Source of the DNA: a virus
Direction: 5' to 3' (one strand)
Length of the DNA stretch: 64,000 bases
IMG/VR virus record: IMGVR_UViG_3300029319_009496
Coordinates: 17,705-81,704 of that record
In this document: piece by piece, positions 12,261 through 60,026 of the stretch
How the letters are laid out: each line of letters starts with the position of its first letter
Position numbering within the stretch: the first letter of the stretch is position 1
Notes under the pieces: generated by a model
The model's database searches: none
Seen by the model: only the letters and a program-made list of their open reading frames with translations
What the model was told of the DNA's origin: nothing
Position numbers and translations under genes: made by a program

Positions 12261-12267
12261 GTGTAAT

Positions 12268-32753: not shown

Positions 32754-34550
32754 ATGTCAAAAAAACAAAAAAAATTAATAAGGTATACAGATAGAGACTT
32801 TAATAATATAAAAGAAAGTTTAGTAAATTATTCAAAAAGATATTACCCAACAATATTTCAAGATTTTTCAGAAGCCTCTTTTGGCTCATTAATGCTTGAC
32901 ACTGTATCGTATGTTGGTGATGTATTATCGTTTTATTTAGACTATCAAGTCAATGAGTCTTTTCTAGACACATCAATTGAATATAATAATGTTTTGAGGC
33001 AAGGAGAACAAGTAGGCTATAAAGAGCCTCTAAAATCAAATTCATTTGGTGTCTCAACTTTTTTTATTCTTGTTCCAACTGCTCCCAATTCTACACAGCC
33101 AGATACTAACTATTTACCAACTTTAGCAAAAAATTCAAAACTTTCATCACAGTCAGGTCAGATATTTACTTTAGTTGATGACGTTGATTTTTCTCATCCA
33201 GATAATGAAATTTTAACTGCTACATCAAGAGCTAATGATGGTCAGGTCACCTCTTATGTTGTTAAAGCTTACGGAAAAGTCATCTCTGGAGAACTTAGGG
33301 AAGAATTGGTGACAGTTGGTGAGTTTAGAAGATTTTTTACTGCTACTTTATCAGACCCAAATATTACTGAAATTGTTTCTGTTGTTGACACCGAGGGGCA
33401 CGAGTATTTTGAAGTAGATTATTTATCGCAGGATACAATTTTTAGATCCGTTGTTAACAAAGATACACAAAGTAGTCGCTATGCTCCCGAAAAAATAGTT
33501 ACAACTTCTGTACCAAGAAGATTTGTTGTGTTTAATAAGTTTGGCCAAACAACATTAAAGTTTGGATATGGTTCTGAGAGCACTTTAAAAACAGAAAATA
33601 TTTCACATCCCTCAAATGTTGTTTTAAAAATGCATGGTAGGGAATATGAAAAAGATGATAGTTTTGATCCTTCAAAGCTTTTAACAACAGATAAATTTGG
33701 TATTGCACCTGCAAACACAACATTAACTGTAACTTATAGAACAAATACAATTGATAATGTTAATGTTGCTTCACAGGCACTTAATCAAGTTATACAACCA
33801 TTTTTTATTTTTGGACCAAATGCAGATAATACTGATAAAATTACTTTAGTAAAAAATAGCATTGAAACAGTAAATGAAAAATCAATCATGGGAGATGTTT
33901 CAGTACCAACTATTAATGAGCTTAAACAAAGAGTAAATGATATTTTTGCTTCACAAAATAGAGCTGTTACAATTAATGATTATGAAGCATTAGTATACAG
34001 ATTACCAACAAAGTTTGGAAGTATTAAAAGATGTAAAGTATTAAGAGATCAAGATTCATTCAAAAGAAATTTAAATCTTTATGTTTTATCGGAAGATAAC
34101 AATGGAAACTATATTACGACAAATCAAATTGTTAAAAATAATTTAAAAGTATGGCTTAATCATTATCGCATGATAAATGATACAATCGATATTTTAGACC
34201 CAAGAATTATAAACATAGGAGTTAATTTTACTGCAGTAGTTGATTATTCACAAAATAAGTTTGATGCGCTAAACGCTGGCATCACCGAAATACAACAAAT
34301 GTTTGATCAAAAAATGGATATTGCAGAGCCAATTTACATAACAGAAATTTATGATCGTTTAAATAATTTAGATGAAATTGTTGACGTGACTGATGTTGTA
34401 ATACTAAATCTAAGTGGAGATAGATATTCAGACGAAACTTTAAATACTTCTGAATTTATATCAGCTGACGGTAGAATTTTATATGCTCCTGAAAACGCAG
34501 TTTATGAACTTAAATTTTCAAATTTAGATATTGTAGGAACTATTAAATAA
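32754..34550 (+). CDS. Baseplate wedge protein, T4 gp6 / Baseplate_J-like
   Basis: DRDFNNIKESL, DFSEASFG, LSFYLD...NESFLDT, QNRAVTINDYE. Confidence 0.88.
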   Translation: MSKKQKKLIRYTDRDFNNIKESLVNYSKRYYPTIFQDFSEASFGSLMLDTVSYVGDVLSFYLDYQVNESFLDTSIEYNNVLRQGEQVGYKEPLKSNSFGVSTFFILVPTAPNSTQPDTNYLPTLAKNSKLSSQSGQIFTLVDDVDFSHPDNEILTATSRANDGQVTSYVVKAYGKVISGELREELVTVGEFRRFFTATLSDPNITEIVSVVDTEGHEYFEVDYLSQDTIFRSVVNKDTQSSRYAPEKIVTTSVPRRFVVFNKFGQTTLKFGYGSESTLKTENISHPSNVVLKMHGREYEKDDSFDPSKLLTTDKFGIAPANTTLTVTYRTNTIDNVNVASQALNQVIQPFFIFGPNADNTDKITLVKNSIETVNEKSIMGDVSVPTINELKQRVNDIFASQNRAVTINDYEALVYRLPTKFGSIKRCKVLRDQDSFKRNLNLYVLSEDNNGNYITTNQIVKNNLKVWLNHYRMINDTIDILDPRIINIGVNFTAVVDYSQNKFDALNAGITEIQQMFDQKMDIAEPIYITEIYDRLNNLDEIVDVTDVVILNLSGDRYSDETLNTSEFISADGRILYAPENAVYELKFSNLDIVGTIK

Positions 34551-36517
34551 TGGCTATAAAAAAATATTTAGCAACAAAAGATAATACAATTACGAATGCA
34601 TTTGAACTAAATCGTAATGTTAGAGCTACAGGTTCAAATATGGGTGCTTCTGACATATTAGAAGTTTTTTCTATATATGGTCAATCAACTACATCATCAG
34701 TTGAGTTGTCTCGTGTATTAGTAGAGTTTCCTATATCCAGTGTTTCTGCCGATCGCGCAGCTGGAAAATTACCAGCCTCAGGAAGTGCAAGGTTTTATTT
34801 AAGAATGTTCAATGCAAGGCACTCAGAGCAACTTCCAAGAGACTATACTTTCAATGTTTTAGCTGTATCACAGTCTTGGCAAGAGGGCTACGGCTTAGAT
34901 ATGGAGTCTTACAGTGATAAAACAAAAGATCGAATACAAGGTTCAAATTGGTTTAATGCTAATAATAATCTTGTAGCAGCAAAGTTGATTAATGCTATTG
35001 ACTGTTCAGGTGTTAGCAATGACCATACATTTACGTTAACATCTCCTACAGCCATGGGAGGCGACGGAGTTACTTACACGTTTAAATTTGTACACGATGT
35101 AACAGCTGTTAATGCAGGCGCCGCAGGAAATATATATTATATTGCCCGCGATGGACTGACAGACGCCCAACGTGCCGCTGCCTGCGCTGATGCAATTAAC
35201 GGAACTGCAAATGTAAATGTTGCTTTTAGCAATGGCGATGCAAGTTCTGTAAACACCACTGATCTTAAAATTAAAGCAACTGCGCCAGGAACTGGTGGTG
35301 GAGCAACTATAGATTTAGAATTTGATAATCCGGGTATAATAGGAAATGGCCATGCAAATGTACTAGCAGCTACAAACGGGTTTACTGGAACTAAAATTCT
35401 TGAAGATGCATTCACAGGCGGTGATGGTAGGTGGGCAAACATTGGTGGCGATTATCATATCTCTGGCCCTTATGTGTCTGGCTCCACAATGCCAAAGAAA
35501 ACTTTTACATTTAATGACGGAGATGAAGACTTGATTGTTGATGTTACTCCTTTTGTTGAGGAATGGATTGATGGTAATAAATCAAATTATGGCTTTGGTG
35601 TGTTCCTAACATCTAGTTTTGAAGGATTTGTTTCTAACTCATCTGGTCTTGATGGTGATGAAATACCACACAATCCTGATGGTGCCAAAAAAAGTTTTTA
35701 TACAAAAAGATTTTTTTCTAGAACAAGTGAGTTCTTTTTTAAAAGACCGGTGCTTGAAGCTAGATGGGACTCAAGAATAAGTGATGATAGGGGATATTTT
35801 TTCTCAAGCTCTTCTCTTGCTCCAGCATCAGATAATTTAAATAACTTGTATCTTTACAATTACATAAGAGGAAATTTGGTGGATATACCACGTTCTGAAA
35901 CAATAACTGTTAGTTTATATTCATCAAGTTTAGCAGGTTCTCCTACAGGAGATGCATTAGCCACTGCTACAGCTAGTAAAATTAGCACTGGAGTATATAA
36001 GGCACAAATATCTATAAATACTACCTCTTCAGTATTAAATGATGTTTGGTCTGGGAGTATTGGTGGTGAATATAAAACAGGCTCAATTAAAGTAAATAAT
36101 TTTAATAATTCTAGTGTTTTAATGTCTGATGATTTTACAACATTTAATACAAAAATAACTAATTTACGCTCTAAATATTCTTCAGATGAACAAGCTAGAT
36201 TTAGAGTTTTTACTAGGCCAAGAAATTTTTCACCTACAATATATACTGTGGCCAATACTGAGCTACAAAAATTAATTGTTCCAAGTGCTTCTTTCGAAAT
36301 ATTTAGATCTGTTGATAATCATACTGTGATTAACAATTCTACTGGTAGCTCGACTAAACATACATATTTGTCTTATGATAATTCTGGTAGTTATTTTGAT
36401 CTTGACATGTCACTTTTAGAGCCCGGTTATATGTATGGAATACGTCTTTATTACCACTCATCTGGTGAGTGGAGAAGACAAAGACAAGAATTTAAATTTA
36501 GAGTAGAAGATATATAA
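34550..36517 (+). CDS. Virion protein with DNRLRE/CBM96-like domain split by an inserted module
   Basis: SRVLVEF, VSQSWQEG, W...GGD, DVTPFVEEW, NYGF, FFSR...RPVLE. Confidence 0.65.
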   Translation: MAIKKYLATKDNTITNAFELNRNVRATGSNMGASDILEVFSIYGQSTTSSVELSRVLVEFPISSVSADRAAGKLPASGSARFYLRMFNARHSEQLPRDYTFNVLAVSQSWQEGYGLDMESYSDKTKDRIQGSNWFNANNNLVAAKLINAIDCSGVSNDHTFTLTSPTAMGGDGVTYTFKFVHDVTAVNAGAAGNIYYIARDGLTDAQRAAACADAINGTANVNVAFSNGDASSVNTTDLKIKATAPGTGGGATIDLEFDNPGIIGNGHANVLAATNGFTGTKILEDAFTGGDGRWANIGGDYHISGPYVSGSTMPKKTFTFNDGDEDLIVDVTPFVEEWIDGNKSNYGFGVFLTSSFEGFVSNSSGLDGDEIPHNPDGAKKSFYTKRFFSRTSEFFFKRPVLEARWDSRISDDRGYFFSSSSLAPASDNLNNLYLYNYIRGNLVDIPRSETITVSLYSSSLAGSPTGDALATATASKISTGVYKAQISINTTSSVLNDVWSGSIGGEYKTGSIKVNNFNNSSVLMSDDFTTFNTKITNLRSKYSSDEQARFRVFTRPRNFSPTIYTVANTELQKLIVPSASFEIFRSVDNHTVINNSTGSSTKHTYLSYDNSGSYFDLDMSLLEPGYMYGIRLYYHSSGEWRRQRQEFKFRVEDI

Positions 36518-36535
36518 TGTATAGTTGGAATATTT

Positions 36536-39500
36536 ATGAGCATAAAAGATTTATTTAATAAAGGTTACTCTTTAAAATTTCTTAAAAGTAAAAATCAAGA
36601 CAATCTTAGAGAAGATTTAGAATCTAACAGGTTTATTGAGGCTTACTCAAAAAGAAGTCAAAGATTTTTTCCAGATGTTGATTTTACAACAGCTTCAAAT
36701 TTCGCTCGCTTTGGTTTAGCCGAGGAATATTATGACACTGCTATAAAAAGGATATATCAAACATATCCATATGATGGCTCTGCTGCAGAAAGAATTGAAT
36801 GGGAAAATGAAAGCACTTATTTAGATTTATTTATTTTTGAAAATGAATACCCAAGAACAAATGGCTTTGTTACTGTTAATAGTGCATCTCATACATACAC
36901 CAGTACTCGTCAAAATAATATTTATAGTAGTAGCTTGCCACAATATATCTCATTCAAAGGAGCACCAAAAGTTGACCCAAGAGGTGATTACAAAAGTCCT
37001 TTAGGGGCAGGCACAGCTCGGTCTGGAATATCCAAAGCTAATATATACGATACAGGCTCTCAAAGAACTAGCAACTTAGAATTTGATTTAGAAAAAGGTG
37101 TTACTGTAGAGTGCTGGATGAAAAAAGATGCTTGGGCAGGCCAAACCCCAAATGCTTGGGAAGTTATATTTAGTAATATTACAACTGGGTCAGTAGCAAG
37201 CGATAATTATATGATTATGTATGTTGCTGATTCATCAAAATCGACAGTATATGTAGAAATTAATTCAGGTTCAGTTAATCATACTTTTTCGCATAACACA
37301 GGCTTAACAGATATAGCTGACGGTTTATGGCATCATTACGCCTTGACTGCTAAAAAAACATCGACAGGAACTAAAACAGAATTATTTGTTGATGGTACAC
37401 ATATTTCTGAAATAGATACAAACAAATCATTTACCGCGTTTGACAATACTTTAGTTGGAGCAATAGGCGCCTTGGCCGCTCCGATAAAGCTCGGCCCGGG
37501 CAAGGTGCAGCTGACCCGAGCCGGCTGGGGAAATATTGTTCGTACATCATTTGATGAATTTAGATATTGGAAAACAGAAAGAAATGCAAAGCAAATTGGT
37601 AGATTTTGGAGAGATCAAATTGCAGGAGGTACCAACACTGACAATATAAAATATGATGACATTACAAACAAAGTTGATTTAGGTATATATTATAAATTTA
37701 ATGAAGGGATTGCAGCGATTCCAAGTACTGATTCTATCATTTTAGACTACTCTGGTAGAATATCCAATGGAATTTATGAAAACTACTCGGCAGCAAATTC
37801 TAGAAGCACTGAATCTGCAATGGTTTTAGCAGGAGCAGCAACTAAAGAATTTAAAGATCCAATATTATATGCCACACACCCAGCTGTTGCATCACTTATA
37901 GTAAATAAGAAAAAACTTGGTAAGATGCATGATTATTCTAATGCCGCTTCTTTGTATAAATCTTTACCTGGCTGGATAGCTGAAGAGGACGAAAAAGAGT
38001 CAAATCATTTAAAATACCTAACACAAATAATGGCTAGTTTTTTAGATGATTTGTATTTGCAAATTAAAAAAATACCAGAATTAAAAAACATAAATTATCC
38101 TGATGATAATTTATATGAAAAGCCACTTCCTTTTGCAGATAGATTGCTAGAAACTAGAGGATATGACGCCCCAGAGCTTTTTTCTCATGCCTCCGCTCTA
38201 GCACAGTTTTTGCAAAGAGATGAAAAAATTCTTTTTGAAAAAAAATTACAAGAAATAAAAAATATAATATATCAAAACATTTACAATAATTTATCTTATA
38301 TACAAAAATCTAAAGGAACTTTTAAATCTTTAAGAAACTTTTTAAGGTGTTTTGGAGTTGATGAAGAGCTGATAAAGCTTAATTTATATGCTAATAATGA
38401 TGAGTATGAATTTAAAGATAATTTTACCAACACTGCATTATCAAAAAAATATGTTGATTTTGATGATCTAGAAACAAGATTTAAATCTAATGGTAATTAT
38501 AATAATTCATTTACAGCGACTGCATATCAGTTTAAGTATGCATCAGTGAATAATTCAATATCATATATACCTGCTATAACAGAAACACAAATGAGCGGCG
38601 CCGCCCTCACAATCGAAGCAGAAATTATTTTTCCAAAAAGAAAATTAGCTGTTGATACTAATTTTGAAGTTTTTCCTTCCCTAACATCATCATTATTTGG
38701 ATTACATGCTGTTCCAGCATCAGATACAAATATTGCTTTTGCATCGGATGATACAATCAATTTTAATATTGTGGCCTTAAAGAACAGCGTCAATGAAAAG
38801 GACGCATCAATAGCGCTTATAACTTCTGGATCATCAAACATACTATCTGATTTAAAATCTACTTTATATACGAGTATATATGATAATCAAAAATGGAATT
38901 TAGCTTTTAGGTTAAGGCCAAAAAATATCTCAGTACCAAACTTTGTTGACGGCGCTGTTGGAAATTTAAATTCTGGCTACATATACGAATTATATGGAAA
39001 TAACTTTCTGTCAAATGAACTTCAAAATGAGTTTATTATTACTGGCTCATTAAATACAGCACAAGCAGCTAAATTTTTTACAAACCCTAAAAGAATATTT
39101 ATTGGATCGGCAAGAAAACATTTTACTGGAAGTGTCGAACTTTATTCAGACGTAAAAATATCATCTGTACGCGCATGGTACAATTATATTGATAATGAAA
39201 CTATGAGATTTCATGGTAAAAATTCTAAAACCTATGGCGCTAAAGATCCTTTTAAAAGTAGTGATTTAAACTATCAAAATAGTAATATTAAAATTCCTGA
39301 AATAAAAACTCTATTTCTTAACTGGACTATTGATAATGTTACAGGCTCTGATGCAAACGGTCAATTTTTAATAAATGATTTTTCATCTGGCTCTAATAGT
39401 ACAACAGATTATGGATATATATCTTCTCTTATAAATAAAAATTACACTGGTAGAGGAGATTTTTTTACTTCTGGTGCTGCATTTAGAGAAGAAGCTGTTG

Positions 39501-42385: not shown

Positions 42386-42391
42386 TATATA

Positions 42392-48046: not shown

Positions 48047-49041
48047 TGGAATTTTTTGATAAAAAAGAAGATGTAATTGATTTAGAGCTTACTCAATTTG
48101 GTAGGCACTTATTATCAAAAGGGCAGTTTCAGCCAGTATATTATTCTTTTTTTGATGACAATGTAATGTATGACTCTAATAAAGCCGGCGTGTCTGAAAA
48201 TCAAAACTTTTCTGAAGATAGAATCAAAGAAACACCAATAATAAAGCCACCTGCAGCTTATTCATCTTTAGAAAAAGAGTTTAACAGTTCTTATGAAGCT
48301 TATTTAACAGAGCACGCTGAAGGTGATTTTGTAACTTTACAAAAAACAGCAGAAAAAAATTATTTATTACCGCGCTCTCTTGGCACTTCTGATATAAATA
48401 AGGAATACTCTCCATCGTGGACAGTTAGGTTTTTGAAAGGACACATATCTAGCTCTATTAAACATCTTACTTTAGAGGAAAAATCTGGTGGTAAAAATAC
48501 TTTATTAATACCTCAGCTAGAAACAAGATCAAAAGCAAAAATGCAAGAAATGACAGCAGATCAAGCATCAGCAGCTCAAGAGCTTTTAGATGCTCCTTCT
48601 TTTGCAAATTATATTATCGCACCTGGTTCATCAAAAGAAGATTTTACAATAATCTTGAAGCTAATTGAAAATAATGCACCATTTCAAAAAGAAAATTTTG
48701 ATATAGAGATTTTTGAAATAATTGATCAGAAGGAAGGAAATAAAACAATTCAAGCTTTAAGGCCCCTACGTTTTTCTAATTCTTTAGAGTTGAATAATGC
48801 AGATGACTATTATAGCTCTGAAGTACCACAAGAAGATATAAATTATGCTTCACATTATTTTGACATTCTTGTTGATGATGAAATTGATTCAAATGTGCTT
48901 TGTGAATTAGATCCAGAAAACACAAAAATGGGTGTCTTTGCCGATAGAAGATCTATTATTTGTCAAGATGTTTTAAACAAACATAAAAAGGTTCCGTTTA
49001 ATATTTATGATACGGAAGATGTACCAGGGGAAATTTGCTAA
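48046..49041 (+). CDS. Putative baseplate/tail-collar protein
   Basis: N-terminus IDLELTQFGRHLLSKG.F...YYSFFDDNVMY is paralogous to the 56624 N-terminus. Confidence 0.55.
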   Translation: MEFFDKKEDVIDLELTQFGRHLLSKGQFQPVYYSFFDDNVMYDSNKAGVSENQNFSEDRIKETPIIKPPAAYSSLEKEFNSSYEAYLTEHAEGDFVTLQKTAEKNYLLPRSLGTSDINKEYSPSWTVRFLKGHISSSIKHLTLEEKSGGKNTLLIPQLETRSKAKMQEMTADQASAAQELLDAPSFANYIIAPGSSKEDFTIILKLIENNAPFQKENFDIEIFEIIDQKEGNKTIQALRPLRFSNSLELNNADDYYSSEVPQEDINYASHYFDILVDDEIDSNVLCELDPENTKMGVFADRRSIICQDVLNKHKKVPFNIYDTEDVPGEIC

Positions 49042-52000: not shown

Positions 52001-52892
52001 TGTACCAAATAAAATTGGTCCTGATCCATCAGATATTGCACCTGCAGGCCTTGAGCCTGTAAAAAAAGAATTTTATAAAAATTTATTTGGTAGTTTTGGC
52101 TTGACATTGCATACCCAAGTTGGTTATAATCAAACATTTAATAAATTCGCAGGTGCTATATCTGAAGATTTAACACCTGTTGAGGTGGGCTCCAATGAAT
52201 TGGTCGCACAATACCCTAATGATTTTTCAGACCAAAGCTATGATACTTCACTGTATTTCAAAGATATATATTATGATGAACAAAATACAATTAGGTTTAT
52301 AAATTCTCCAGACGTCCGGGAAATACCTCCACCTAAAGCTAGCCTACCAAATATAATTAAAATTAACAGCTTAATTAATGATACGGATCCTGGCGATAAT
52401 TTATTTCAATTAAATCAAGATTATATAAATTTTTCAGACTCATACGCATTTTTAAACATGAACCTATTAATGAGAGTGGAATATTATACCGGCCCTACAG
52501 CATACACTGCAGAAGCTGGAGAAGCACTCCCACTTAAGGGTCCTGATGATGTTTTTGTGCCTGGAGATTATGAGACATATTATAAGCCTATAAAAGACGA
52601 TGATGAATCTTGGCAGTTATTAACTCGACAAATTTATGAACAAAACGCGAGCGGCCTACCCTCAAGCCCCGCCTCCGCGACATTATTTTGTAGGCTAGTT
52701 TACTATGATGAATCGGCAACTAAACAATATAAACTGCCAGTTGTAAATAGATATTTTTTACTGGTCGGCGGCCAGTATGATTTTTCCGGTGAGGGTGTGA
52801 TTCAAGACAACAATCCAGCCACGTCCATCACCGCCGACATAGATACCATGTCGCTTAATATAACCGCGCAGGGCCCTGAATTCGGGCTTTGA
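49041..52892 (+). CDS. Large hypothetical virion protein (about 1283 aa)
   Basis: TAATG coupling at 49041; structural context. Confidence 0.65.
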   Translation: MSVTTQFLDSVTGGGFLPYVYCKKVVIENHPDFTDAYKIIVHIEILQEKNKLLQNPFFNPTAQDVLGVRLTDYIYIQFVPFSGVNNVKKLYPGSANDIEKTYVSNVAQPISPWAMDHPDIQGILLNTHLPGASKKLYSPLPHGPVPIKNFASGEAEKIQAPGLNTIFGNDPLLQGFYFDTWPPPPYRLSIDSALGDIFNKTLNLDNFIGVGGIMENAAFQVFGNTRQEIINGKIYYAIPFQIPFNHFFNEHQNLGFLFYTFFNTPLFVDDLKNSYEEVFNYGGSDPFIDYGNLFSLGPVNTEVIFLNGKTTKTRDQFHLDDGEAWNGPAHVHIDSSAFSGEIIGPDPSGYAGNGGYGPNQGWMVGQRHSGPENERLRLLKVPNTKIQNFTFDKNLDLDGFLTVAQVYSQQFFGAGDFMNKSILKNIISPFEKQNKKYLDKLDASSHYDNDSEFSKLYISRDHDNNARGMFFIDFKSLLTNNSLFFSSFNEYGKKTLLKSCLEFSSIQRLTVLRDRVHKKLKGKIYEKFQNDTYLEEPSQVIARGSDNYNFYSSLGIQGGGSLQETNVDFLNSVKPTGVPGIKGTTGHIRNFGFTDKDVSNKSAGHYQYKINLDFIDGSYQYIRNFLNDMLNASKRMELYYEIASTGVLLKSIDGQVVTTEYIQANSPAGPGQLVGSVAYSYLEKPNITAKRVKYYQDGAFTSGFEHAANYQFPDKPWNLDPIDGADLVNLIVHYTKIFENEDNVNETNIQEAANYMRAMVNPTTGSPEGILYILKIAKKMCERLTKVLSKTPVSKKGCELSKVAGGNYNISNFSNIHGKAATIIQEEHVFNDPKEIFTAVNSKNIYIDYLSIGTPTSPGPLPGLASYHYLHYQNRCRLDALKISEAAVDDERFNDQVFVLNVEPPTGDNTLAGTGYSYLSPSIIEMETNKNGYGFMYSAFVPGADIAGTDPLTPNQTDLTERVVLSILDYVYNKEEINDADITTNYFVPNKIGPDPSDIAPAGLEPVKKEFYKNLFGSFGLTLHTQVGYNQTFNKFAGAISEDLTPVEVGSNELVAQYPNDFSDQSYDTSLYFKDIYYDEQNTIRFINSPDVREIPPPKASLPNIIKINSLINDTDPGDNLFQLNQDYINFSDSYAFLNMNLLMRVEYYTGPTAYTAEAGEALPLKGPDDVFVPGDYETYYKPIKDDDESWQLLTRQIYEQNASGLPSSPASATLFCRLVYYDESATKQYKLPVVNRYFLLVGGQYDFSGEGVIQDNNPATSITADIDTMSLNITAQGPEFGL

Positions 52893-52963: not shown

Positions 52964-52973
52964 AACTATTTAT
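52964..52973 (+). promoter_or_regulatory. Putative phage late promoter (AACTATTTAT)
   Basis: Intergenic, 25 nt upstream of ATG 52999; AAGGA RBS between. Confidence 0.6.
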
Positions 52974-52998
52974 TATATTCGCATAAAGGAAAAAAAAC

Positions 52999-53313
52999 AT
53001 GCCTCCTCAAAAATATCCAATTTACGATTCTTCTACATCTAAATATTTAAAAAAACAACGTGATATTAAAGCAAGAAAAAGAGATCGACGCGCAAATACT
53101 AGAGATGCCAATCTTGATCTTCCTGCAGGACGAAGTAGGCGACCCGGACCAACAGCTGGACCTGCCCCATCTCAACAAGCGCCATCTACTAGCCAACAAT
53201 CTATTTCACCTCCAGCGGCGGCCCCTGCTGTCAGTATACCAACAGGTGGTGGTGGAGGCGGCACCGGAGGTGGTGGCGGCGGAGGCGGCGGCGGCGGTGG
53301 TGGAGGATATTAA
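52999..53313 (+). CDS. Small disordered protein: basic N-terminus, P/S/A linker, poly-Gly-Tyr C-terminus
   Basis: Own promoter motif and RBS; TAATG coupling to the next gene; mixed GGN codons. Confidence 0.7.
   Translation: MPPQKYPIYDSSTSKYLKKQRDIKARKRDRRANTRDANLDLPAGRSRRPGPTAGPAPSQQAPSTSQQSISPPAAAPAVSIPTGGGGGGTGGGGGGGGGGGGGGY
53245..53307 (+). repeat. GGN trinucleotide tract encoding G6-T-G14
   Basis: ggtggtggtggaggcggcaccggaggtggtggcggcggaggcggcggcggcggtggtggagga. Confidence 0.9.
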
Positions 53314-56300
53314 TGTCATCAAAACAACTATTAGGTAAAAAAAGATTAATTGTTGATAACGCCGTCTTTTTAGACTTGCAAGAAAGCGCAGACGGCACAA
53401 CATTTGGTCAAAATTATGTTGATTATCTTGGTACAACATTTTTATCTTATGAAGGTAAAGATACTGTAAGGGCTGCAGTTGGCAAACACTGGGATTATCA
53501 TACAAATTTACCAGAAACTACTGATTCTTTTTTTACAAATAATAATCCAAAGCCAACTCTTTTTTTCAATCAGCCAGTTCATCTTGTCGAGTGTGATGAC
53601 CCAGAGGAGCTTGTGGACGTTCCATTTACTCAGGATATTTCACAGCCTGATGGCGAACTCACGCAAGAAGAAATTGACATGCTTACAGCGGCAGGTATTT
53701 TTAATCTTCCTTTCGGCATATATAGAAAAAAAATGATGTTGCGCTGTAATGTGCCATTGAGTGAATTACAAAATTATGACGATGTAAATGAGCAAAAACT
53801 ACAAATGTTTTGGACTTATTTAACAAAATATGGAATTGTTAGAGAAAATGGTCAATTATTAAGACCAATTATAAGATCAGGCGAACAATTTTTAGACCAT
53901 GTACATGAGGCCGATGATCCTTTTACACCTGAGGAACTAGAGAGCACCGATCCGGTAGGTCCTGCTTTTTATGCAGATTATAAAACATATTATAATAATA
54001 GTTATTTTTCAGAAAGATACGATGATCTCACATCAGATTCTCGTTTGCAAAATGCTTTGCCAAACGTGTATTCAATAATAAGTATTTTAAATAACCATGC
54101 ATTAACGGAAAAAACATCTTTTTCATTGACCGAAATTATAAACGGTGGGGATGATGGAATAAACAGTTTTTTCCCTAGCGGCTTTACAGTTGGTGGATCT
54201 CCGAAAAGTTTAACTTTGCAAAACTTTTTATTATATGGTTTTTATCTGCCTTCAGGCTTGCCGGTAACCCGACGCGCACCGCCAGAAACTTTTAATTCAA
54301 TTTTAAAGTATTATCCACTGGAAGCCTCTATTAGTCTTTATGGCAATCACCGTTTAACAGATCTAAGTTCTGGCGAAACATTAATTAAGATGATCCGCGC
54401 AAACAAATCGAAAGAAGACACTGACATGTCTTCTTTGTATCATGACTACATTATTAGATTTTTAGAAGAAATAGGCGGCGCCGATCCAACTTCGTATTAT
54501 ACAATTCAAGATGCTCAGGCTATTCATGATTCTTATATAGAAGGTATAGAACCAACAACAAAACTGGGAGCACTAGAGTATATAAATTCAAATTTAATTT
54601 TTAGCCCAAGATCCATTGAAACACTAAACGCTGTAAACAAATATAAAGATTATTTTCCAATGTATTTTGAGATGAATTTTTCATCAAAAAAGAAAGCAGG
54701 ATTAGGAGATATATTAAGAGAAGCACATTTTTCTAATCCAGTAGCAACAGAAATTGTAGGTTCACAAAATATATTTGGTGCTCGTCAAACAGAAGGAAGT
54801 GGCCCTTATCAGTTTCGCAATAATAAATCTGTTAATTATTCTTTTGTTGAGCATGTAGAGGCGAAAGAATATTTAAACGCTACTAATATTAGTGAAAAAA
54901 TTATTTTACCTTTATATAATCCAGACAATATAGCTTATACAGAAACAACAAAAAAAACTATCGATTTTATTAGTCTTTTATATGATAAAGTTAGTTTTTC
55001 AAATGATATACAGGACCTGCCTCAAGAGGACATTTTATATGATTCAAACGGCAATCCTATGAATTGGATAAGTCAAGAAGATCCAATACCGGGTGCTCCT
55101 CTCCCCTATTCTCTTGGGACTGATGCTAGAAATTATATAACATATTTCAAAAATTCAGATGAATATGACATATATGAGGCTGAATGGCTTAATGGAGTAT
55201 TCGCTCAAGCTATAAAAAGTGAAGTGGTAGGTATTTATGGATCTAGCAGAAGAAAATACATTGATATAGTCGCTGGAACTCAAGCAAATAATGAAGATTT
55301 ATTTTATTTAATTAAAAAATTTGAAATAAAATCGGGTGTGGAAAAAGAAATAAAAAATATTATCTTTCCAAATAATTCACAAGTTAAGGATATACAATTT
55401 GTCGACACACAAGTTAAGTACGCTAGTAATGCAACTTATCGATATGAAGTTTATGCTTGTCGCCTCGTTTACGGTGAAAGTTATAGCTATTATTTTGAAG
55501 ATGACGTCGGCGCAAAATATACCTATAGTGATGCGGATGCAATTAATTCTTTTGGAAACACTGAAAATTTAATAAACCCTAATACTTTACCTGGTGAATT
55601 TTATGGTGGCACAACTTCGCATTTAGAAGGAGATTCTGTGATGCTTCATACAACTTTCTATGCTGAAACTAGACCATCTATACAATTAATACAAGATTTA
55701 CTTTTTTCAACACCAGAAATAAAAATTGTTGATTCGCCGCCAGTTCCGCCTGATGTAAATATTGTGCCCTACAGAGCTAAAAGCGACAGGATAAAAATAA
55801 TATTGCAGGCTTCTTCTGATATGTTTAGAGAAAAGATGGTCAGACTTACAAATAGTGATATTAATCAAGAAAATTTAATGATAGAAGCTCAGCTTTCGGC
55901 TGATAGAAAAATATTATTTTCATCTGATGACAGAGTTTCTGGTTTTGAAATGTTCAAAATAGATAAGAGACCAACATCATATCAAGATTTTTTTCTAGAT
56001 GTTGCAAATCCTGTGATTCAAGGATCAACTGTTATGTTTGATGATTTAGTACAGCCTAATAGAAAATATTATTATACTTTTAGAACAGTAGATATACACG
56101 GTCATTTTTCTAACCCCTCTGCTGTATACGAGGTTGAACTAATAGATGAAAAAGGTGCAGTAAAGCCAATAATAAAAACAATTTCTTTAGATCCACCACA
56201 AGATTATCAACAAGTAAAGGAGTGTCAAAAATATTTAATGATTAAGCCCACTGATAAACAAATATTTTTTTCAGATTCAGAAGCAATCGATTCTATTTTT

Positions 56301-56552
56301 TCCTCTAAGAAGCCAGTTGATCAACGCCGCCGTTTTAAAGTTAGGCTAACATCAAAAAGCACTGGTAAAAAAGTTGATATTAATATTTCTTTTGGAAGAG
56401 AAATGTTACCTAAAGAAATTGAACTTACTTCGACTCAAGCAAACGCGCTCGTCGACGCCTTGGCTGGCATCTCTTCAGCGAAGACGCCGCCAAGCGGTAT
56501 GACTCTCGCGCCTTTAGGGAAAAAAACGCTTAGTGATCTTATAAATGAATAA
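53313..56552 (+). CDS. Large virion protein with C-terminal FN3/Ig-like repeats
   Basis: FVDTQVKY...YRYEVYA and FDDLVQPNRKYYYTFRTVDIHGHFSNPS (FN3 F-G strands). Confidence 0.6.
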   Translation: MSSKQLLGKKRLIVDNAVFLDLQESADGTTFGQNYVDYLGTTFLSYEGKDTVRAAVGKHWDYHTNLPETTDSFFTNNNPKPTLFFNQPVHLVECDDPEELVDVPFTQDISQPDGELTQEEIDMLTAAGIFNLPFGIYRKKMMLRCNVPLSELQNYDDVNEQKLQMFWTYLTKYGIVRENGQLLRPIIRSGEQFLDHVHEADDPFTPEELESTDPVGPAFYADYKTYYNNSYFSERYDDLTSDSRLQNALPNVYSIISILNNHALTEKTSFSLTEIINGGDDGINSFFPSGFTVGGSPKSLTLQNFLLYGFYLPSGLPVTRRAPPETFNSILKYYPLEASISLYGNHRLTDLSSGETLIKMIRANKSKEDTDMSSLYHDYIIRFLEEIGGADPTSYYTIQDAQAIHDSYIEGIEPTTKLGALEYINSNLIFSPRSIETLNAVNKYKDYFPMYFEMNFSSKKKAGLGDILREAHFSNPVATEIVGSQNIFGARQTEGSGPYQFRNNKSVNYSFVEHVEAKEYLNATNISEKIILPLYNPDNIAYTETTKKTIDFISLLYDKVSFSNDIQDLPQEDILYDSNGNPMNWISQEDPIPGAPLPYSLGTDARNYITYFKNSDEYDIYEAEWLNGVFAQAIKSEVVGIYGSSRRKYIDIVAGTQANNEDLFYLIKKFEIKSGVEKEIKNIIFPNNSQVKDIQFVDTQVKYASNATYRYEVYACRLVYGESYSYYFEDDVGAKYTYSDADAINSFGNTENLINPNTLPGEFYGGTTSHLEGDSVMLHTTFYAETRPSIQLIQDLLFSTPEIKIVDSPPVPPDVNIVPYRAKSDRIKIILQASSDMFREKMVRLTNSDINQENLMIEAQLSADRKILFSSDDRVSGFEMFKIDKRPTSYQDFFLDVANPVIQGSTVMFDDLVQPNRKYYYTFRTVDIHGHFSNPSAVYEVELIDEKGAVKPIIKTISLDPPQDYQQVKECQKYLMIKPTDKQIFFSDSEAIDSIFSSKKPVDQRRRFKVRLTSKSTGKKVDINISFGREMLPKEIELTSTQANALVDALAGISSAKTPPSGMTLAPLGKKTLSDLINE

Positions 56553-56594
56553 AATACACATTTTTTCTAAACATTTATCATAAACAAAAACAAT

Positions 56595-56605
56595 AACTAT
56601 TTATA
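56595..56605 (+). promoter_or_regulatory. Putative phage late promoter (AACTATTTATA)
   Basis: Intergenic, 18 nt upstream of ATG 56624; GAGGAG RBS between. Confidence 0.6.
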
Positions 56606-56623
56606 CATTAGAGGAGCATAGAA

Positions 56624-57763: not shown

Positions 57764-57786
57764 TATAAAATACAAGGTGAAAAAAA

Positions 57787-58845
57787 ATGGCAAAATCATT
57801 TAAAAATTTGTTAGGGGATGATCAAAAAACAACGAGAACGTTACTTCACGAAGCAATCCCGATTACAGGCAGTATTGTCTCCGGCACGTATACACTGCAC
57901 AGCAATGTTAAAACTTTTTCTCATGGCATGTTCCAGTCTATATATGACTATCCTTTCTTAAGTTCATCCGCTAATCATATTTTTGATTTGACTTACGGTC
58001 ATAGTTCTGCAGCGTCTTCGTCTGCAACTGTACAAAACGCTAAAAAGTTAAATATTTATAATCAAATGGCACAAGTGCTTATGGGCTATACAACTGATAG
58101 CCAAATAAGAAAATTTGATGCAGATGGCGAATTAGATGATTCATTAAATATTATGAATCATTGTTTCTTTGTTAACTTTTCTAGACTTTTAGTTAAAGAT
58201 GAAATTAAAAAAGGATCATTTAGACTTAATTTATATACAGGTAATGATTTTCATGGTGTTAATGCCGATGTTCTAGGAGCACAAAGATTAATCGGCGATT
58301 ATGATGCATCTAATGAATTTAGAGTTTCACCAGCTGGCGATTATGGTCTTTTATTTAAATCATCCACTAGTTCGTCCGCAAACTCTAATAGTGTTGGATT
58401 AATTTTTTATCAAGCAGGTATTGCTGTTCTAACTGCGTCAATCTTTACCAATGAATTTGGAGCTACTGGATTTACAACTGGTGGCACTACTTCTGGCACT
58501 GGTTCTATGACTGGAGCTAGAATTGGAATGACGATTGATCAACTAGCAAATGGCTTTAGAAAAACAATTGAGGACATAGATTTTAATAATACTATTGAAC
58601 TTAACTCATCAATATATTTTTGCAGAGTCAACCATAATGAATTTAATTACAGTGCAAACCCAACTTACTTAAATTCTAGTAAATTAGTTGTAAAAAATCA
58701 AGCTACAGACTTACCAGTTAGCTATATAACAACCATCGGCCTATATTCTCCCGATAATGAATTAATGGCAGTTGCTAAATTATCAGAACCTATTAGGAAG
58801 GATCCAAATACTGAATTGACTTTAAGGGTTAGATTAGATTACTAA
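57787..58845 (+). CDS. Virion structural protein, paralogue A (DUF3751 C-half-like end)
   Basis: IKKGSF, GLIFYQAG, FNYSANPT, YITTIGLY...ELMAVAKLSEPIRK. Confidence 0.6.
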   Translation: MAKSFKNLLGDDQKTTRTLLHEAIPITGSIVSGTYTLHSNVKTFSHGMFQSIYDYPFLSSSANHIFDLTYGHSSAASSSATVQNAKKLNIYNQMAQVLMGYTTDSQIRKFDADGELDDSLNIMNHCFFVNFSRLLVKDEIKKGSFRLNLYTGNDFHGVNADVLGAQRLIGDYDASNEFRVSPAGDYGLLFKSSTSSSANSNSVGLIFYQAGIAVLTASIFTNEFGATGFTTGGTTSGTGSMTGARIGMTIDQLANGFRKTIEDIDFNNTIELNSSIYFCRVNHNEFNYSANPTYLNSSKLVVKNQATDLPVSYITTIGLYSPDNELMAVAKLSEPIRKDPNTELTLRVRLDY

Positions 58846-58859
58846 TAAGAGGTAATATC

Positions 58860-60026
58860 ATGCCCGGGCATACAACTCAGTACGGAAACTTTTTTGAATT
58901 TCATAAAGAAGATATTTTTAGAAATCGTATAAAGACTTATCCTAAGTATGAGATTTTTATTTATAGTGGCACTCATTATTTAAATGATGAAAATCAAAGC
59001 AAAGAAAACGCTAATACTCCTTCCGGTCATATAAATTTACATGATTTGAACGTCAACAGAGCTGCACACGCTAGCGCTGGCGATAGTCAGCTAATTCATC
59101 CTTTTATTACCAAGCAAGGATCGTTTATAAATTTCAAAACGATATCTACCGATAAATTTAATTTAGATTTTAGTCTAGGTAGCACTCTCACTGGAACATA
59201 CCCAATGACTTCAGCTATACATATTGAAAGATTTGGAACTGCTTTTTCTGGACGAAAAAAAAGAGTCTTAAACTCTCTTCGTAGTACGCTAGATTTTTAT
59301 ACACCACTTAGCCCTAGATATGCTTTTTCTTCTTCTTTTGGGGAGAAAGCTAGCGGCTCTCTTAATTTAATAAGTGTTCCATCAATTTTTTATGGCTCAA
59401 GTATAAAAAAGGGAAGTGTATTTTTAAAATATTATGTAACAGGGACGCTCCTTGCAGAAGCTTCTGATATAAACAGAAACGGTGATTTAATACAAACCAC
59501 AGGGTCAACCACAGGTCACGTTATAGGTAGTGTATTATATAACGAGGGCTTTTTATTATTGACGTCAAGTGCAGCGCTAAGCTCACACACCGAGCAATAT
59601 GTTTCAGGAAATGTTAATTTTTTCACAGCTTCATGGCAGCACTTTGCACCAAGTGCATCCTATAATTCAACAGCTTCAAGTTACTCAGTTGCGTTTAATG
59701 GTACAAATTATATTGATACAATTACAATGTTCGCGCAAGCTAAAGAAAATTTTTTAAATTTTTCAACAAACCCAACTTTCCTGAGTGGCTCAAAGTTTGC
59801 TTTTACATCAAGTGACATATATCATGAAGATTCGCAATTAAAAATAAAAAACATTGTATCAAGTAGTTATAAAAATTATACCTCAAGTTTTAAGCCTGTA
59901 ACTTACATTTCTAAAATTGGCATATATGATAAAGATAAAAATTTAATTGCAGTCGCTGGGTTAGCGAATCCAGTTAGAAAATTAGAAGAGCGTAGTTATA
60001 CATTTAAACTTAAATTAGATATATAG
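58860..60026 (+). CDS. Virion structural protein, paralogue B
   Basis: IKKGSV, GSVLYNEG, NFSTNPT, YISKIGIYD...LIAVAGLANPVRK. Confidence 0.6.
   Translation: MPGHTTQYGNFFEFHKEDIFRNRIKTYPKYEIFIYSGTHYLNDENQSKENANTPSGHINLHDLNVNRAAHASAGDSQLIHPFITKQGSFINFKTISTDKFNLDFSLGSTLTGTYPMTSAIHIERFGTAFSGRKKRVLNSLRSTLDFYTPLSPRYAFSSSFGEKASGSLNLISVPSIFYGSSIKKGSVFLKYYVTGTLLAEASDINRNGDLIQTTGSTTGHVIGSVLYNEGFLLLTSSAALSSHTEQYVSGNVNFFTASWQHFAPSASYNSTASSYSVAFNGTNYIDTITMFAQAKENFLNFSTNPTFLSGSKFAFTSSDIYHEDSQLKIKNIVSSSYKNYTSSFKPVTYISKIGIYDKDKNLIAVAGLANPVRKLEERSYTFKLKLDI

What the first reader, a model, noticed from the sequence alone, without database searches (positions are those of the whole stretch)
34550..60026. Candidate virion O-glycosylation sequon: [S/T]-[G/A/S]-S confined to a subset of structural proteins
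Seen: approximate hand counts of TGS/SGS/TAS/SAS/TSS/SSS are 14 in 655 aa (34550), 19 in 1949 aa (36536), 22 in 1874 aa (42422), 6 in 352 aa (57787) and 11 in 388 aa (58860). That is about 1 per 70 aa, often after a hydrophobic residue (ITGS, LSGS, FTAS). Five neighbouring structural proteins (14879, 20456, 32754, 49041, 53313; about 8200 aa) have only about 7 in total. The motifs are dispersed through unrelated folds rather than tandem, as expected for a modification site. Inference: they are acceptor sites for the glycan made by the 1-13 kb cluster, marking exposed virion proteins for a sugar coat.
Basis: partly seen in the sequence, partly recalled or inferred. Interest (0 to 1): 0.85.

Follow-up and report, generated by a model that had tools for sequence, protein, structure and literature searches.

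The report
Recurrent serine tripeptide in phage tail proteins
A short hydroxyl-small-serine tripeptide really is three to five times too frequent at fixed loop positions in the outer tail proteins of this uncultured marine phage and its relatives, and it may mark where the phage's own sugar-adding enzymes act, although a purely structural role is nearly as likely.

Summary
[ST][GAS]S occurs 75 times in the five named proteins, against 22.7 expected. It survives whole-protein and local shuffles. It is a protein-level, directional motif: TGS 19 against 2.9 expected, GTS 0, SGT 6. The five comparison proteins hold 8 against 16.2 expected.

The excess is a family trait. All 80 fetched homologues of the 58860 protein show it. 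It sits at about 17-24 recurrent alignment columns where TGS, SGS, TAS, SAS, TSS and SSS interchange and position 3 is Ser far more often than Thr. Outside those columns the motif is at expectation.

T4 fibre and baseplate proteins do not show it. The distant cultured phages Mel-JY01 and immuto do, and they share the baseplate module and a conserved tandem GT4 pair.

That GT4 pair lies just upstream of the window, heads a variable island of soluble sugar enzymes, and is predicted to form a heterodimer.

O-glycosylation acceptor sites are my best reading (about 0.4). A structural strand-cap or turn motif is close behind (about 0.35). No call shows a sugar on any protein, and shared ancestry confounds the link between the GT4 pair and the motif.

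Earlier notes of this scan describe similar glycan islands on other DNA, but not this motif.

The parts
1..13098 (+). Window part of a glycan island. It holds a DegT aminotransferase, a GFO/IDH oxidoreductase, a GT15-like, a GT1-like and a weak GT11-like transferase, two UDP-glucose dehydrogenase-like genes, NAD synthase, an FkbM and other methyltransferases, a sulfotransferase, two SDR epimerase/dehydratases and an APS kinase. The island starts 4.9 kb upstream of the window (contig C1 12796-17704) with the tandem GT4a and GT4b genes, an ORF with no Pfam match (16031), a Nucleotid_trans ORF and a GT2.
   Evidence: Pfam scans; NCBIfam scan. Of the 21 island ORFs only the N-terminus of the APS kinase ORF is TM-like. 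GT4a was found in 9 of 10 related contigs. Of this island's genes, only GT4a, GT4b and the 16031-like segment find clear counterparts (36-67% identity) in three relatives' islands; the other matches are an SDR epimerase and an aminotransferase at 21-30% identity over part of their length.
34550..36517 (+). Motif-rich protein (655 aa) directly after the baseplate wedge gene. It has 15 [ST][GAS]S sites.
   Evidence: 15 observed, 4.18 expected, z 5.44; local shuffles give z 5.1-6.0; three homologues hold 45 observed against 9.1 expected. No Pfam or PHROG family at the default cut-off.
36536..42385 (+). Motif-rich protein (1949 aa) with a ConA-like lectin domain at residues 177-314. It has 19 sites.
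   Evidence: 19 observed, 7.11 expected, z 4.46. Laminin_G_3, E 1.5e-7; homologues hold 67 against 20.0.
42422..48046 (+). Motif-rich protein (1874 aa) with 23 sites, three of them in the first 17 residues and none after residue 1405.
   Evidence: 23 observed, 6.61 expected, z 6.36. Positions are listed; homologues hold 37 against 16.2.
48046..49041 (+). A 331-aa protein with only 1 site here, but its family is motif-rich in relatives.
   Evidence: 1 observed, 0.67 expected; 39 homologues hold 72 against 20.0.
57787..58845 (+). Motif-rich protein (352 aa) with 7 sites. It is a paralogue of 58860 in its C-terminal half.
   Evidence: 7 observed, 1.80 expected, z 4.05; paralogy, E 1e-11; 67 homologues hold 470 against 137.9; recurrent columns; model with pLDDT 67.
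58860..60026 (+). Motif-rich protein (388 aa) with 11 sites. It belongs to a very large viral family.
   Evidence: 11 observed, 3.00 expected, z 4.69; 80 of 80 homologues lie above expectation (717 against 166); 2859 representative clusters at E <= 0.001; the 150 listed representatives hold 1473 against 359; model with pLDDT 74; no clear fold match.
14879..18916 (+). Comparison protein (1345 aa) without the motif.
   Evidence: 0 observed, 3.18 expected. No family found.
20456..32275 (+). Comparison protein (3939 aa) with the motif at expectation.
   Evidence: 7 observed, 7.18 expected.
32754..34550 (+). Baseplate wedge protein (598 aa) without the motif.
   Evidence: phrog_219, E 3.6e-16; 0 observed, 1.30 expected. 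Its homologues in immuto and Mel-JY01 hold 1 against 1.3 and 1 against 1.1.
49035..52892 (+). Comparison protein (1285 aa), motif-poor.
   Evidence: 1 observed, 2.09 expected; 18 homologues hold 34 against 56.9.
53313..56552 (+). Comparison protein (1079 aa) depleted in the motif.
   Evidence: 0 observed, 2.48 expected; 58 homologues hold 41 against 105.0.

Best explanation
The [S/T]-[G/A/S]-S tripeptides are acceptor sites for cytoplasmic O-glycosylation of the outer baseplate and fibre proteins. In this model a conserved pair of soluble GT4 glycosyltransferases (GT4a and GT4b, just upstream of the window) works as a heterodimer. It puts a first sugar on the invariant Ser at position 3, or on both hydroxyls, at loops that follow or precede beta strands. 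The variable enzymes of the island (here GT2, GT15-like and GT1-like transferases, methyltransferases, and a sulfotransferase supplied with PAPS) then extend that sugar into a strain-specific glycan.

Shown: the motif statistics, the conservation of its positions, its loop or strand-end context in two models, the gene content of the island, the conservation of the GT4 pair, and a predicted GT4a-GT4b interface.

Inferred: that any protein is glycosylated, that the GT4 pair primes it, which residue is the acceptor, and what the glycan is.
For: (1) The excess is large and specific: 75 observed against 22.4 expected (z 10.8). Variants that lose the position-1 hydroxyl or the position-3 Ser are not enriched: [GA][GAS]S 23 against 17.2, [DN][GAS]S 15 against 16.3, [ST][GAS]T 25 against 17.5.
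(2) It is a protein-level signal. The 75 instances use many codon combinations, and the commonest 9-mer occurs 3 times.
(3) At recurrent columns of the 58860 and 57787 families the six tripeptides replace each other. Position 1 is S 298 / T 236 and S 193 / T 153. Position 2 is G, S or A. Position 3 is S 473 against T 57, and S 324 against T 17. In some lineages the same columns hold ordinary turn formers (DGK, KSP, NPK, GPV, GAN), so the motif is not needed for the fold there.
(4) It occurs in proteins with no detectable homology to each other. It is absent or depleted in neighbouring large proteins. That points to a factor acting in trans.
(5) It is not generic to myovirus fibres. Twenty-eight T4 structural proteins hold 38 against 38.6 expected, and gp34, gp37, gp12, gp10 and gp7 are all near expectation.
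(6) Genome-wide TGS:SGT, which has identical composition on both sides, is 22:8 here, 40:12 in Mel-JY01 and 21:9 in RM378 (all with GT4a). It is 20:36, 23:29, 43:61 and 2:6 in HTVC008M, Syn9, P-SSM2 and the T4 parts (no GT4a at E <= 0.001 in the first three).
(7) GT4a is 59-67% identical in 5 of 5 large relatives and is found in 9 of 10 in all, while the rest of the island differs. Of 21 island ORFs, 20 lack a TM-like segment, and no Pfam hit to a priming phosphoglycosyltransferase, flippase or polymerase appeared.
(8) The complex prediction for GT4a with GT4b scored 0.88, with the best of 3 controls at 0.00. That mark was reached by 58 of 80 solved complexes and 2 of 110 mismatched pairs. The runs agree in at least 97% of contacts and the partner's pLDDT is at least 90. 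The model supports binding but does not show it, and solved GT4 pairs may be remembered.
(9) Of 18 sites in the two models none is in mid-strand, 6 directly follow a strand, and 5 lie in segments with pLDDT below 50.
Against: No call gives any direct sign of a sugar on a protein. The excess is wholly position-specific: outside recurrent columns the motif is at expectation (44 against 39.6 and 42 against 47.0 at the 5% threshold). That suits a structural element as well as a site-specific modification.

Hydrophobic residues flank the motif. In the immuto 'tail spike' it forms hexapeptide repeats [ST][AG]S[YF]xx, which look like a fibre repeat.

Sheath orthologues are enriched about twofold with the GT4 pair (65 against 27.5) and without it (21 against 10.5).

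The link to GT4a rests on 8 genomes and is confounded. The window phage, Mel-JY01 and immuto share the wedge and several motif-rich proteins, and the GT4a-negative phages have no homologues of them. Immuto is 47:42 for TGS:SGT genome-wide. RM378 has GT4a, but its homologue of the 57787/58860 C-terminal domain holds 1 against 1.2.

Non-structural ORFs of the clade do not avoid the motif (279 against 279.4), which one might expect if the tripeptide alone sufficed for a soluble enzyme. GT4a and GT4b are generic GT4s: GtfA (TIGR02918) scores 19.4 bits against a cut-off of 574.6, and no DUF1975 was found.

The published reading of such islands in pelagimyophages is modification of the host O-chain (PMC7029224, passages read).
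Confidence: 0.4

Rival explanations
1. The motif is a purely structural element. It is a strand cap or tight turn (hydroxyl, small residue, Ser) that recurs in the beta-rich baseplate and fibre domains of this phage lineage. The two hydroxyls satisfy backbone hydrogen bonds or subunit contacts, and the small middle residue allows close packing. Nothing is attached to it.
For: The enrichment comes only from recurrent, conserved alignment columns. Hydrophobic residues flank the motif (37 of 75 at -1, 36 of 75 at +1). Six of 18 modelled sites directly follow a strand and 3 precede one. At some columns S/T-G-S alternates with D-G-K, the classical turn sequence. The immuto tail spike has periodic [ST][AG]S[YF]xx repeats. 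Sheath proteins of phages without GT4a also show about twofold enrichment. All phages with strong enrichment share homologous baseplate proteins.
Against: A fold-specific motif should not spread over proteins with no detectable homology in one virion while being absent from T4 fibres and baseplate proteins and from the directionality of HTVC008M fibres. G, A and S interchange at position 2 at the same column, which does not fit a turn that needs a positive phi angle. Position 3 is Ser about 8- to 19-fold more often than Thr, whereas position 1 takes either. Several columns tolerate unrelated turn sequences, so the motif is not structurally required there.
Confidence: 0.35
2. The motif is recognised in trans by something other than a glycosyltransferase. 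Candidates are another modification of Ser (for example phosphorylation, acylation or direct sulfation), a fibre assembly chaperone, or a docking contact between baseplate proteins.
For: The argument for a factor in trans is the same: a lineage-wide, directional motif in unrelated virion proteins. '[ST]GSLN' stands at or near the N-terminus of two fibre-like proteins here and in immuto, and inside two more window proteins (contexts), which could be a docking strand. The island also holds a sulfotransferase with a PAPS supply and several methyltransferases.
Against: No kinase, acyltransferase or recognisable fibre chaperone was identified next to these genes. The sulfotransferase belongs to Pfam Sulfotransfer_2; that this family is known for carbohydrate acceptors is my recollection. 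The only strongly conserved enzymes of the island are the two GT4s.
Confidence: 0.1
3. The pattern is a by-product of composition, low complexity, a DNA-level signal, or post hoc choice of the pattern.
For: In Syn9 and P-SSM2 single ORFs score high only because of a poly-Ser run or a Gly/Ser-rich tail.
Against: Whole-protein and local shuffles. TGS alone passes a correction for 8000 tripeptides. Codon diversity. Replication in 80 of 80 homologues and in 149 of 150 family representatives at a ratio of 2 or more. The window's sites are dispersed, not runs.
Confidence: 0.03

Closest known systems
Serine-rich repeat protein glycosylation by the GtfA/GtfB pair (Gram-positive accessory Sec loci)
   Same: In that system a conserved two-protein priming glycosyltransferase acts in the cytoplasm on Ser/Thr of sequences in which serines alternate with small residues, and a variable set of further GTs extends the glycan (PMC6973325, passages read). 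That GtfA belongs to GT4 and that priming takes place in the cytoplasm are my recollection. Here there is a conserved tandem GT4 pair with a predicted interface, a variable downstream GT set and a hydroxyl-small-Ser motif.
   Different: GT4a and GT4b are not GtfA/GtfB by sequence: TIGR02918 scores 19.4 bits against a cut-off of 574.6, and there is no DUF1975. The window's sites are single tripeptides at fixed loops of folded proteins, not long low-complexity repeats. Only the immuto tail spike has repeat arrays. There is no accessory Sec export, and the target would be a virion.
Virion glycosylation of mycobacteriophages (Freeman et al. 2023, Cell Host Microbe)
   Same: Phage-encoded glycosyltransferases decorate structural proteins of the phage's own particle. 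I know this only through a citing passage in PMC12619734. The paper itself is not held.
   Different: There the glycans are reported at the C-termini of the capsid and tail tube subunits (the citing passage). Here the candidate sites are internal, dispersed and concentrated in baseplate and fibre proteins. The host, the phage lineage and the enzymes differ, and nothing is shown experimentally here.
[quoted passage not shown]
   Same: The proven bacterial O-glycosylation sequon is made of the same Ser-small-Ser units (PMC5796085, passage read).
   Different: It is one low-complexity stretch in a secreted protein, not many fixed sites. The enzyme is not compared here.
Host recognition cluster of pelagimyophages and cyanomyophages, with 'LPS-related' glycosyltransferases
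   Same: These are marine T4-like phages with a variable region that mixes tail fibre genes and many GT and sugar genes (PMC7029224; PMC12801897).
   Different: The authors read the GTs as modifying the host O-chain or DNA, and no acceptor motif is proposed. HTVC008M, Syn9 and P-SSM2 lack GT4a, lack homologues of the motif-rich proteins and lack the TGS-over-SGT bias. This window therefore belongs to a different lineage, nearer to phages immuto and Mel-JY01.
Virus-encoded glycosylation of giant viruses (chlorovirus capsid, mimivirus fibrils)
   Same: The best solved relative of GT4a is the chlorovirus NY-2A glycosyltransferase B736L (3oy2, E 6.7e-9). That these viruses use soluble virus-encoded enzymes and clade-specific sugar clusters to build glycans on virion proteins without host export machinery is recalled; I saw only the search listing of PMC4691112.
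   Different: The hosts are eukaryotic, and the sequons recalled for chloroviruses are N-linked and different. The similarity to B736L is at the generic GT4 level.

Membership tests
GtfA/GtfB-type SRRP priming glycosyltransferase pair | GtfA equivalog (TIGR02918) with the DUF1975 domain | tested here: not met
   GT4a scores 19.4 bits against a cut-off of 574.6. Pfam reports only generic GT4 families and no DUF1975.
GtfA/GtfB-type SRRP priming glycosyltransferase pair | A second GT4-like subunit that binds the catalytic one | tested here: inconclusive
   GT4b is a divergent GT4 encoded next to GT4a. The predicted complex scored 0.88 with the best control at 0.00. This is a model only, and it may reflect solved GT4 dimers.
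GtfA/GtfB-type SRRP priming glycosyltransferase pair | The acceptor is a long serine-rich repeat domain | tested here: not met
   The window's sites are dispersed single tripeptides. Repeat arrays are seen only in the immuto tail spike.
Phage virion glycosylation (mycobacteriophage type) | Glycan mass on structural proteins shown by mass spectrometry | not testable with these tools
   It needs virions. Cultured candidates are phages immuto and Mel-JY01.
Phage virion glycosylation (mycobacteriophage type) | Sites at the C-termini of the capsid and tail tube subunits | not tested
   The capsid and tube genes are not on this 81.7-kb contig. In Mel-JY01 the capsid protein holds 5 against 1.9 expected.
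Bacteroidetes general O-glycosylation | Sequon D-[ST]-[AILVMT] (recalled) | tested here: not met
   12 observed against 18.6 expected in the five motif-rich proteins.
N-glycosylation (NGT or OST type) | Sequon N-x-[ST] enriched in the targets | tested here: not met
   66 observed against 64.9 expected.
Classical beta-turn motif (type I' or II', Asx/ST turn) | Gly or Asn/Asp required at the positive-phi position; S/T interchangeable with D/N at the capping position | tested here: inconclusive
   DGK and DSK replace SGS/TGS at two columns, but G, A and S interchange at position 2 of most columns, and [DN][GAS]S is not enriched. No coordinates were available to measure angles or burial.
Lipid-linked surface polysaccharide pathway (O-antigen or capsule type) | Priming phosphoglycosyltransferase, flippase or ABC exporter, polymerase or ligase | tested here: not met
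   No such Pfam family appeared among the island ORFs scanned; the 192-aa ORF I took for island ORF 16 was scanned from window 8305, 38 codons upstream of its ATG. 20 of 21 ORFs have no TM-like segment. Host enzymes could still supply these steps.

The most novel reading that the evidence does not exclude
A widespread lineage of aquatic myoviruses (this marine clade, Microcystis phage Mel-JY01 and Flavobacterium phage immuto) uses a dedicated protein O-glycosylation code. A GT4a/GT4b heterodimer primes the Ser of [S/T]-[G/A/S]-S at exposed loops of the outer tail proteins. A hypervariable island of soluble enzymes then builds strain-specific glycans on them, here methylated and sulfated. The tail fibres would thus carry a variable sugar coat that tunes host recognition or shields the particle. 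This would reassign many 'LPS auxiliary genes' of marine phages to virion decoration.
Probability: 0.3. Interest if true: 0.85.

Novelty: new variant of a known kind. Interest (0 to 1): 0.62.

Why it matters
Large glycan islands are common in uncultured marine T4-like phages. Look-alikes of GT4a occur in 199 windows of 144 genomes of this scan, and the 58860 family has 2859 representative clusters. Their target is unknown, and the published readings are host O-chain or DNA modification. A defined, conserved candidate acceptor tripeptide turns that open question into a direct experiment. It predicts which peptides of which virion proteins should carry extra mass. Two cultured phages (immuto, Mel-JY01) carry both the GT4 pair and the motif, so the test does not need the uncultured phage. 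If confirmed, it would be, as far as my searches show, the first sequon described for phage particle glycosylation. If refuted, the motif remains an unusually clean lineage-specific structural signature that is useful for recognising outer tail proteins in viral dark matter.

Tried and rejected
DNA-level cause: rejected. The 75 instances use diverse codons.

Regional composition or low complexity: rejected for the window by local shuffles. It does explain single high-scoring ORFs in Syn9 (a poly-Ser run) and P-SSM2 (a Gly/Ser tail).

Generic property of myovirus fibres: rejected by T4, with 28 proteins at 38 against 38.6 and a highest z of 2.39 for gp48.

Known sequons (D-[ST]-[AILVMT], N-x-[ST], Ser-Gly): not enriched, or only weakly (SG 49 against 37.7).

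Naming the motif-rich proteins: PHROGs and Pfam gave nothing beyond a Laminin_G_3 domain in 36536. PDB sequence searches gave nothing for 34550 and 57787. Foldseek against the PDB gave no match at E <= 0.001 for the 58860 model. VIA-align wide gave no Z of 5 or more, only Ig-like and phage-part resemblances at Z 3-5. The Atlas gave only unnamed viral clusters. I did not run a fold search on the 57787 model.

Surface mapping: the tools return secondary structure but no coordinates, so I could not compute solvent exposure. Only the strand and loop context is reported.

Same-fold test with sheath and capsid orthologues: there is no difference between phages with and without GT4a (sheath 65 against 27.5 versus 21 against 10.5; capsid counts are all small).

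Independent replication in Mel-JY01 and immuto: weakened. Their baseplate modules are homologous to the window's, although some of their motif-rich proteins found no BLAST match among the window's proteins (Mel-JY01 3065-4591; immuto 135075-136196 and 97658-100819).

Turnover test: there is no excess outside recurrent columns, which argues against selection for sheer site density.

The profile search of 1.84 billion proteins lists only the best 150 hits, all close (E < 1e-119), so distant family members could not be examined.

GT15-like gene: absent from 5 of 5 relatives, so it cannot be the conserved priming enzyme.

Literature: searches found no paper on this motif or on glycosylated tail proteins in these phages. 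Freeman et al. 2023 is not held. I did not ask for supplementary files. The supplementary tables of PMC7029224 and PMC12801897 may list GT families that bear on the comparison.

I did not use the search for homologous proteins, the look-up of sequencing runs or read laying.

Full report
**What the window is.** All ORFs of at least 150 aa lie on the + strand, and GC is 0.29-0.36. The window is bases 17705-81704 of an 81.7-kb viral contig. Genes in order:
- sugar-nucleotide and glycan-tailoring genes at 1-13098;
- large proteins without a family (14879, 18930, 20456);
- a baseplate wedge protein (32754; phrog_219);
- a run of large and medium proteins without a family (34550 to 58860);
- RuvC-like, primase and SbcC-like genes.

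No close cultured relative exists. The 58860 protein finds only a 35% match over about 100 residues in Microcystis phage Mel-JY01. IMG/VR holds 162 relatives, of which 80 loci were kept, on contigs up to 186 kb.

**The observation.** Exact counts are 15, 19, 23, 7 and 11 sites in the five named proteins, i.e. 75 against 22.7 expected, with z of 4.05 to 6.36. The five comparison proteins hold 8 against 16.2. Shuffling within windows of 20 to 160 residues keeps the excess (z 2.5-6.1). The signal is directional:

| Tripeptide | Observed | Expected |
|---|---|---|
| TGS | 19 | 2.9 |
| SGS | 15 | 3.8 |
| TAS | 11 | 2.7 |
| TSS | 11 | 4.2 |
| SSS | 13 | 5.6 |
| SAS | 6 | 3.6 |
| GTS | 0 | 2.9 |
| GGS | 1 | 2.7 |
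| NGS | 3 | 2.7 |
| SGT | 6 | 2.9 |

(All.) Both ends of the pattern matter: [GA][GAS]S holds 23 against 17.2, [DN][GAS]S 15 against 16.3, and [ST][GAS]T 25 against 17.5. The codons are diverse, so the signal is at the protein level. Hydrophobic residues flank the motif more often than background (37 and 36 of 75 against 0.318).

**It is a family trait at fixed positions.**
- All 80 fetched homologues of 58860 exceed expectation (717 against 166).
- The 150 listed representatives of the family hold 1473 against 359, and 149 of 150 have a ratio of 2 or more.
- Over the loci, the families of 34550, 36536, 42422, 48046, 57787 and 58860 have ratios of 2.3 to 4.9.
- The families of 53313, 49035 and the SbcC-like protein have ratios of 0.37 to 0.60.
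- The 421 unassigned ORFs have a ratio of 1.00.

In an alignment of 67 non-identical 58860 homologues, 353 of 598 instances lie in columns occupied in at least half of the sequences. At those columns the six tripeptides replace each other, while position 3 stays Ser (473 against 57 Thr). The 57787 family behaves alike (324 against 17). Some lineages carry DGK, KSP, NPK, GPV or GAN at the same columns. Outside recurrent columns the motif is at expectation (44 against 39.6 and 42 against 47.0). The excess is therefore site-specific, not a general density.

**Structure.**

| Model | Mean pLDDT | Sites | Sites in segments below pLDDT 50 |
|---|---|---|---|
| 58860 | 74 (core 120-300 near 90) | 11 | 2 |
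| 57787 | 67 | 7 | 3 |

Both models are mainly beta. Of the 18 sites none is in mid-strand, 6 follow a strand directly, 3 precede one, and 2 overlapping ones lie in a short helix. Position 2 is coil in 14 of 18 and position 3 in 13 of 18. No coordinates are returned, so I could not measure exposure. No solved fold matches clearly. The five proteins are not one family: only 57787 and 58860 are paralogues, and the 58860 profile finds nothing in 34550, 36536 or 42422.

**The glycan island and its conserved head.** The island begins upstream of the window at contig position 12796. It starts with two tandem GT4 genes: GT4a, 417 aa, whose best solved relative is chlorovirus B736L at 6.7e-9, and GT4b, 420 aa, with no PDB sequence match. 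Then follow an ORF without a family, a Nucleotid_trans ORF and a GT2, and then the window's genes.
- Twenty of 21 ORFs lack a TM-like segment.
- No priming transferase, flippase or polymerase family was hit.
- In three relatives, GT4a (57-67% identity), GT4b (39-64%) and part of the 16031 ORF are the only clear counterparts of this island's genes; an SDR epimerase and an aminotransferase match at 21-30% over part of their length.
- The GT15-like gene is absent from 5 of 5 relatives, whereas GT1, GT2 and epimerase families are present in 5 of 5.
- GT4a is found in 9 of 10 large relatives. The miss is a 66%-complete contig on which the island would lie beyond the contig end if gene order is kept.
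- The complex prediction supports a GT4a-GT4b interface: score 0.88, best of 3 controls 0.00. That mark was reached by 58 of 80 solved complexes and 2 of 110 mismatched pairs. The runs agree in at least 97% of contacts and the partner's pLDDT is at least 90. It does not show binding, and solved GT4 pairs may be remembered.

**Controls in other phages.** T4's 28 structural proteins hold 38 against 38.6, and none of gp34, gp37, gp12, gp10 or gp7 stands out.

Among cultured phages, GT4a homologues occur in Flavobacterium phage immuto, Mel-JY01, RM378 and an uncultured 484-kb record, with weaker matches in four smaller phages. In immuto and Mel-JY01 the tandem pair follows a PD-(D/E)XK nuclease gene, directly or with one gene between, as it does here; in RM378 the pair follows a DNA polymerase I-like gene.

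In Mel-JY01 (150 of 190 kb examined, 115 ORFs) the highest scores are outer tail proteins at 165-181 kb, an annotated structural protein (24 against 7.3) and the tail sheath (11 against 3.0). Two large proteins after the tube gene are poor (3 against 4.7; 1 against 6.4). Within that set SGS is 35 against 5.3 and TGS 25 against 3.0, but SGT is 2 against 3.0 and TGT 3 against 1.9. The set was chosen by the motif itself, so only this internal asymmetry counts.

Immuto has three ORFs with z of 4 or more, one of them a 'tail spike' with hexapeptide repeats [ST][AG]S[YF]xx. RM378 is weak. HTVC008M, Syn9 and P-SSM2 lack GT4a. Their few high-scoring ORFs are non-directional, a poly-Ser run, or a Gly/Ser tail.

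Genome-wide TGS:SGT:

| Phage | GT4a | TGS:SGT |
|---|---|---|
| window contig | yes | 22:8 |
| Mel-JY01 | yes | 40:12 |
| immuto | yes | 47:42 |
| RM378 | yes | 21:9 |
| HTVC008M | no | 20:36 |
| Syn9 | no | 23:29 |
| P-SSM2 | no | 43:61 |
| T4 (parts) | not searched | 2:6 |

**Limits of that association.** The window phage, Mel-JY01 and immuto share the wedge (31% identity) and homologues of 34550, 36536, 56624 and 57787/58860. The GT4a-negative phages have none of these. The GT4 pair and the motif-rich proteins are therefore inherited together, and the comparison is not independent. Sheath orthologues show about twofold enrichment in both groups. RM378 has GT4a, but its C-terminal-domain homologue is not enriched.

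**Reading.** A directional, Ser-specific tripeptide is kept at loop positions of several unrelated outer tail proteins of one lineage, and is replaceable there by ordinary turn sequences. That is most simply explained by a factor acting in trans. The only strongly conserved enzymes next to these genes are two soluble GT4s that head a variable island without export functions. This resembles the logic of SRRP glycosylation: a conserved priming pair, variable extension, and Ser-small-Ser acceptors (PMC6973325). It also resembles the Ser-Ser-Ala sequon of the L. buchneri S-layer (PMC5796085). The GT4s are not members of the GtfA/GtfB family.

I put O-glycosylation acceptor sites at about 0.4, a purely structural strand-cap or turn motif at about 0.35, another factor in trans at about 0.1, and artefact at about 0.03. 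The published reading of such islands, host O-chain modification (PMC7029224; PMC12801897), is not excluded.

**Earlier notes of this scan.** One search lists follow-up notes on related islands in other genomes. These describe GT4-headed islands without export genes and guess at virion decoration. None mentions an acceptor motif.

Noticed in passing
contig C1 12017-15313 (upstream of the window; locus L087): A cassette of PD-(D/E)XK nuclease, GT4a and GT4b heads the glycan island here. It recurs, directly or with one gene between, in Flavobacterium phage immuto and Microcystis phage Mel-JY01; in Rhodothermus phage RM378 the tandem pair follows a DNA polymerase I-like gene. In Mel-JY01 the GT4a homologue is annotated as two CDS (record 83441-84013 and 84024-84932). 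In one relative (G007) it carries an insertion (875-aa frame).
   Followed up: partly
window 5343-6116: An NAD synthase gene lies inside the glycan island. In phage immuto an NAD synthetase gene follows the motif-rich tail spike gene directly.
   Followed up: no
window 57787-60026, with Mel-JY01 172-181 kb and RM378: The last 100 or so residues of 57787 and 58860 form a domain shared by at least five Mel-JY01 ORFs, two immuto ORFs and one RM378 ORF. It may be a common attachment domain of a paralogous set of outer baseplate proteins. 48046 and 56624 share their first 75 or so residues (E 0.02).
   Followed up: partly
window 42422-48046: The last 470 residues (after 1405) of this 1874-aa protein hold no motif site, although the rest holds 23. 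That suggests a differently built distal domain.
   Followed up: no
window 2394-3293: The GT15-like (Kre2/Mnt1-type) glycosyltransferase (Pfam E 9.3e-13) has no homologue in 5 of 5 large relatives. It belongs to the variable part of the island.
   Followed up: partly
window 53313-56552 and 61522-63999: The families of these two proteins hold the motif at only 0.39 and 0.37 of expectation over 58 and 50 homologues. I did not test whether this is avoidance or simply a helical composition.
   Followed up: no
L150 14659-17820 (immuto record 97658-100819): The annotated tail spike has long arrays of hexapeptides [ST][AG]S[YF]xx and repeats of the type SGSF-SGSF-x-GDGS-x-LTG. No Pfam repeat family matches.
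   Followed up: partly
contig C1 5861-5871: A run of 10 N lies in the contig upstream of the window.
   Followed up: no
window 11529-12260: The APS kinase ORF carries an N-terminal DUF2061 segment that is the only TM-like stretch of the island.
   Followed up: no
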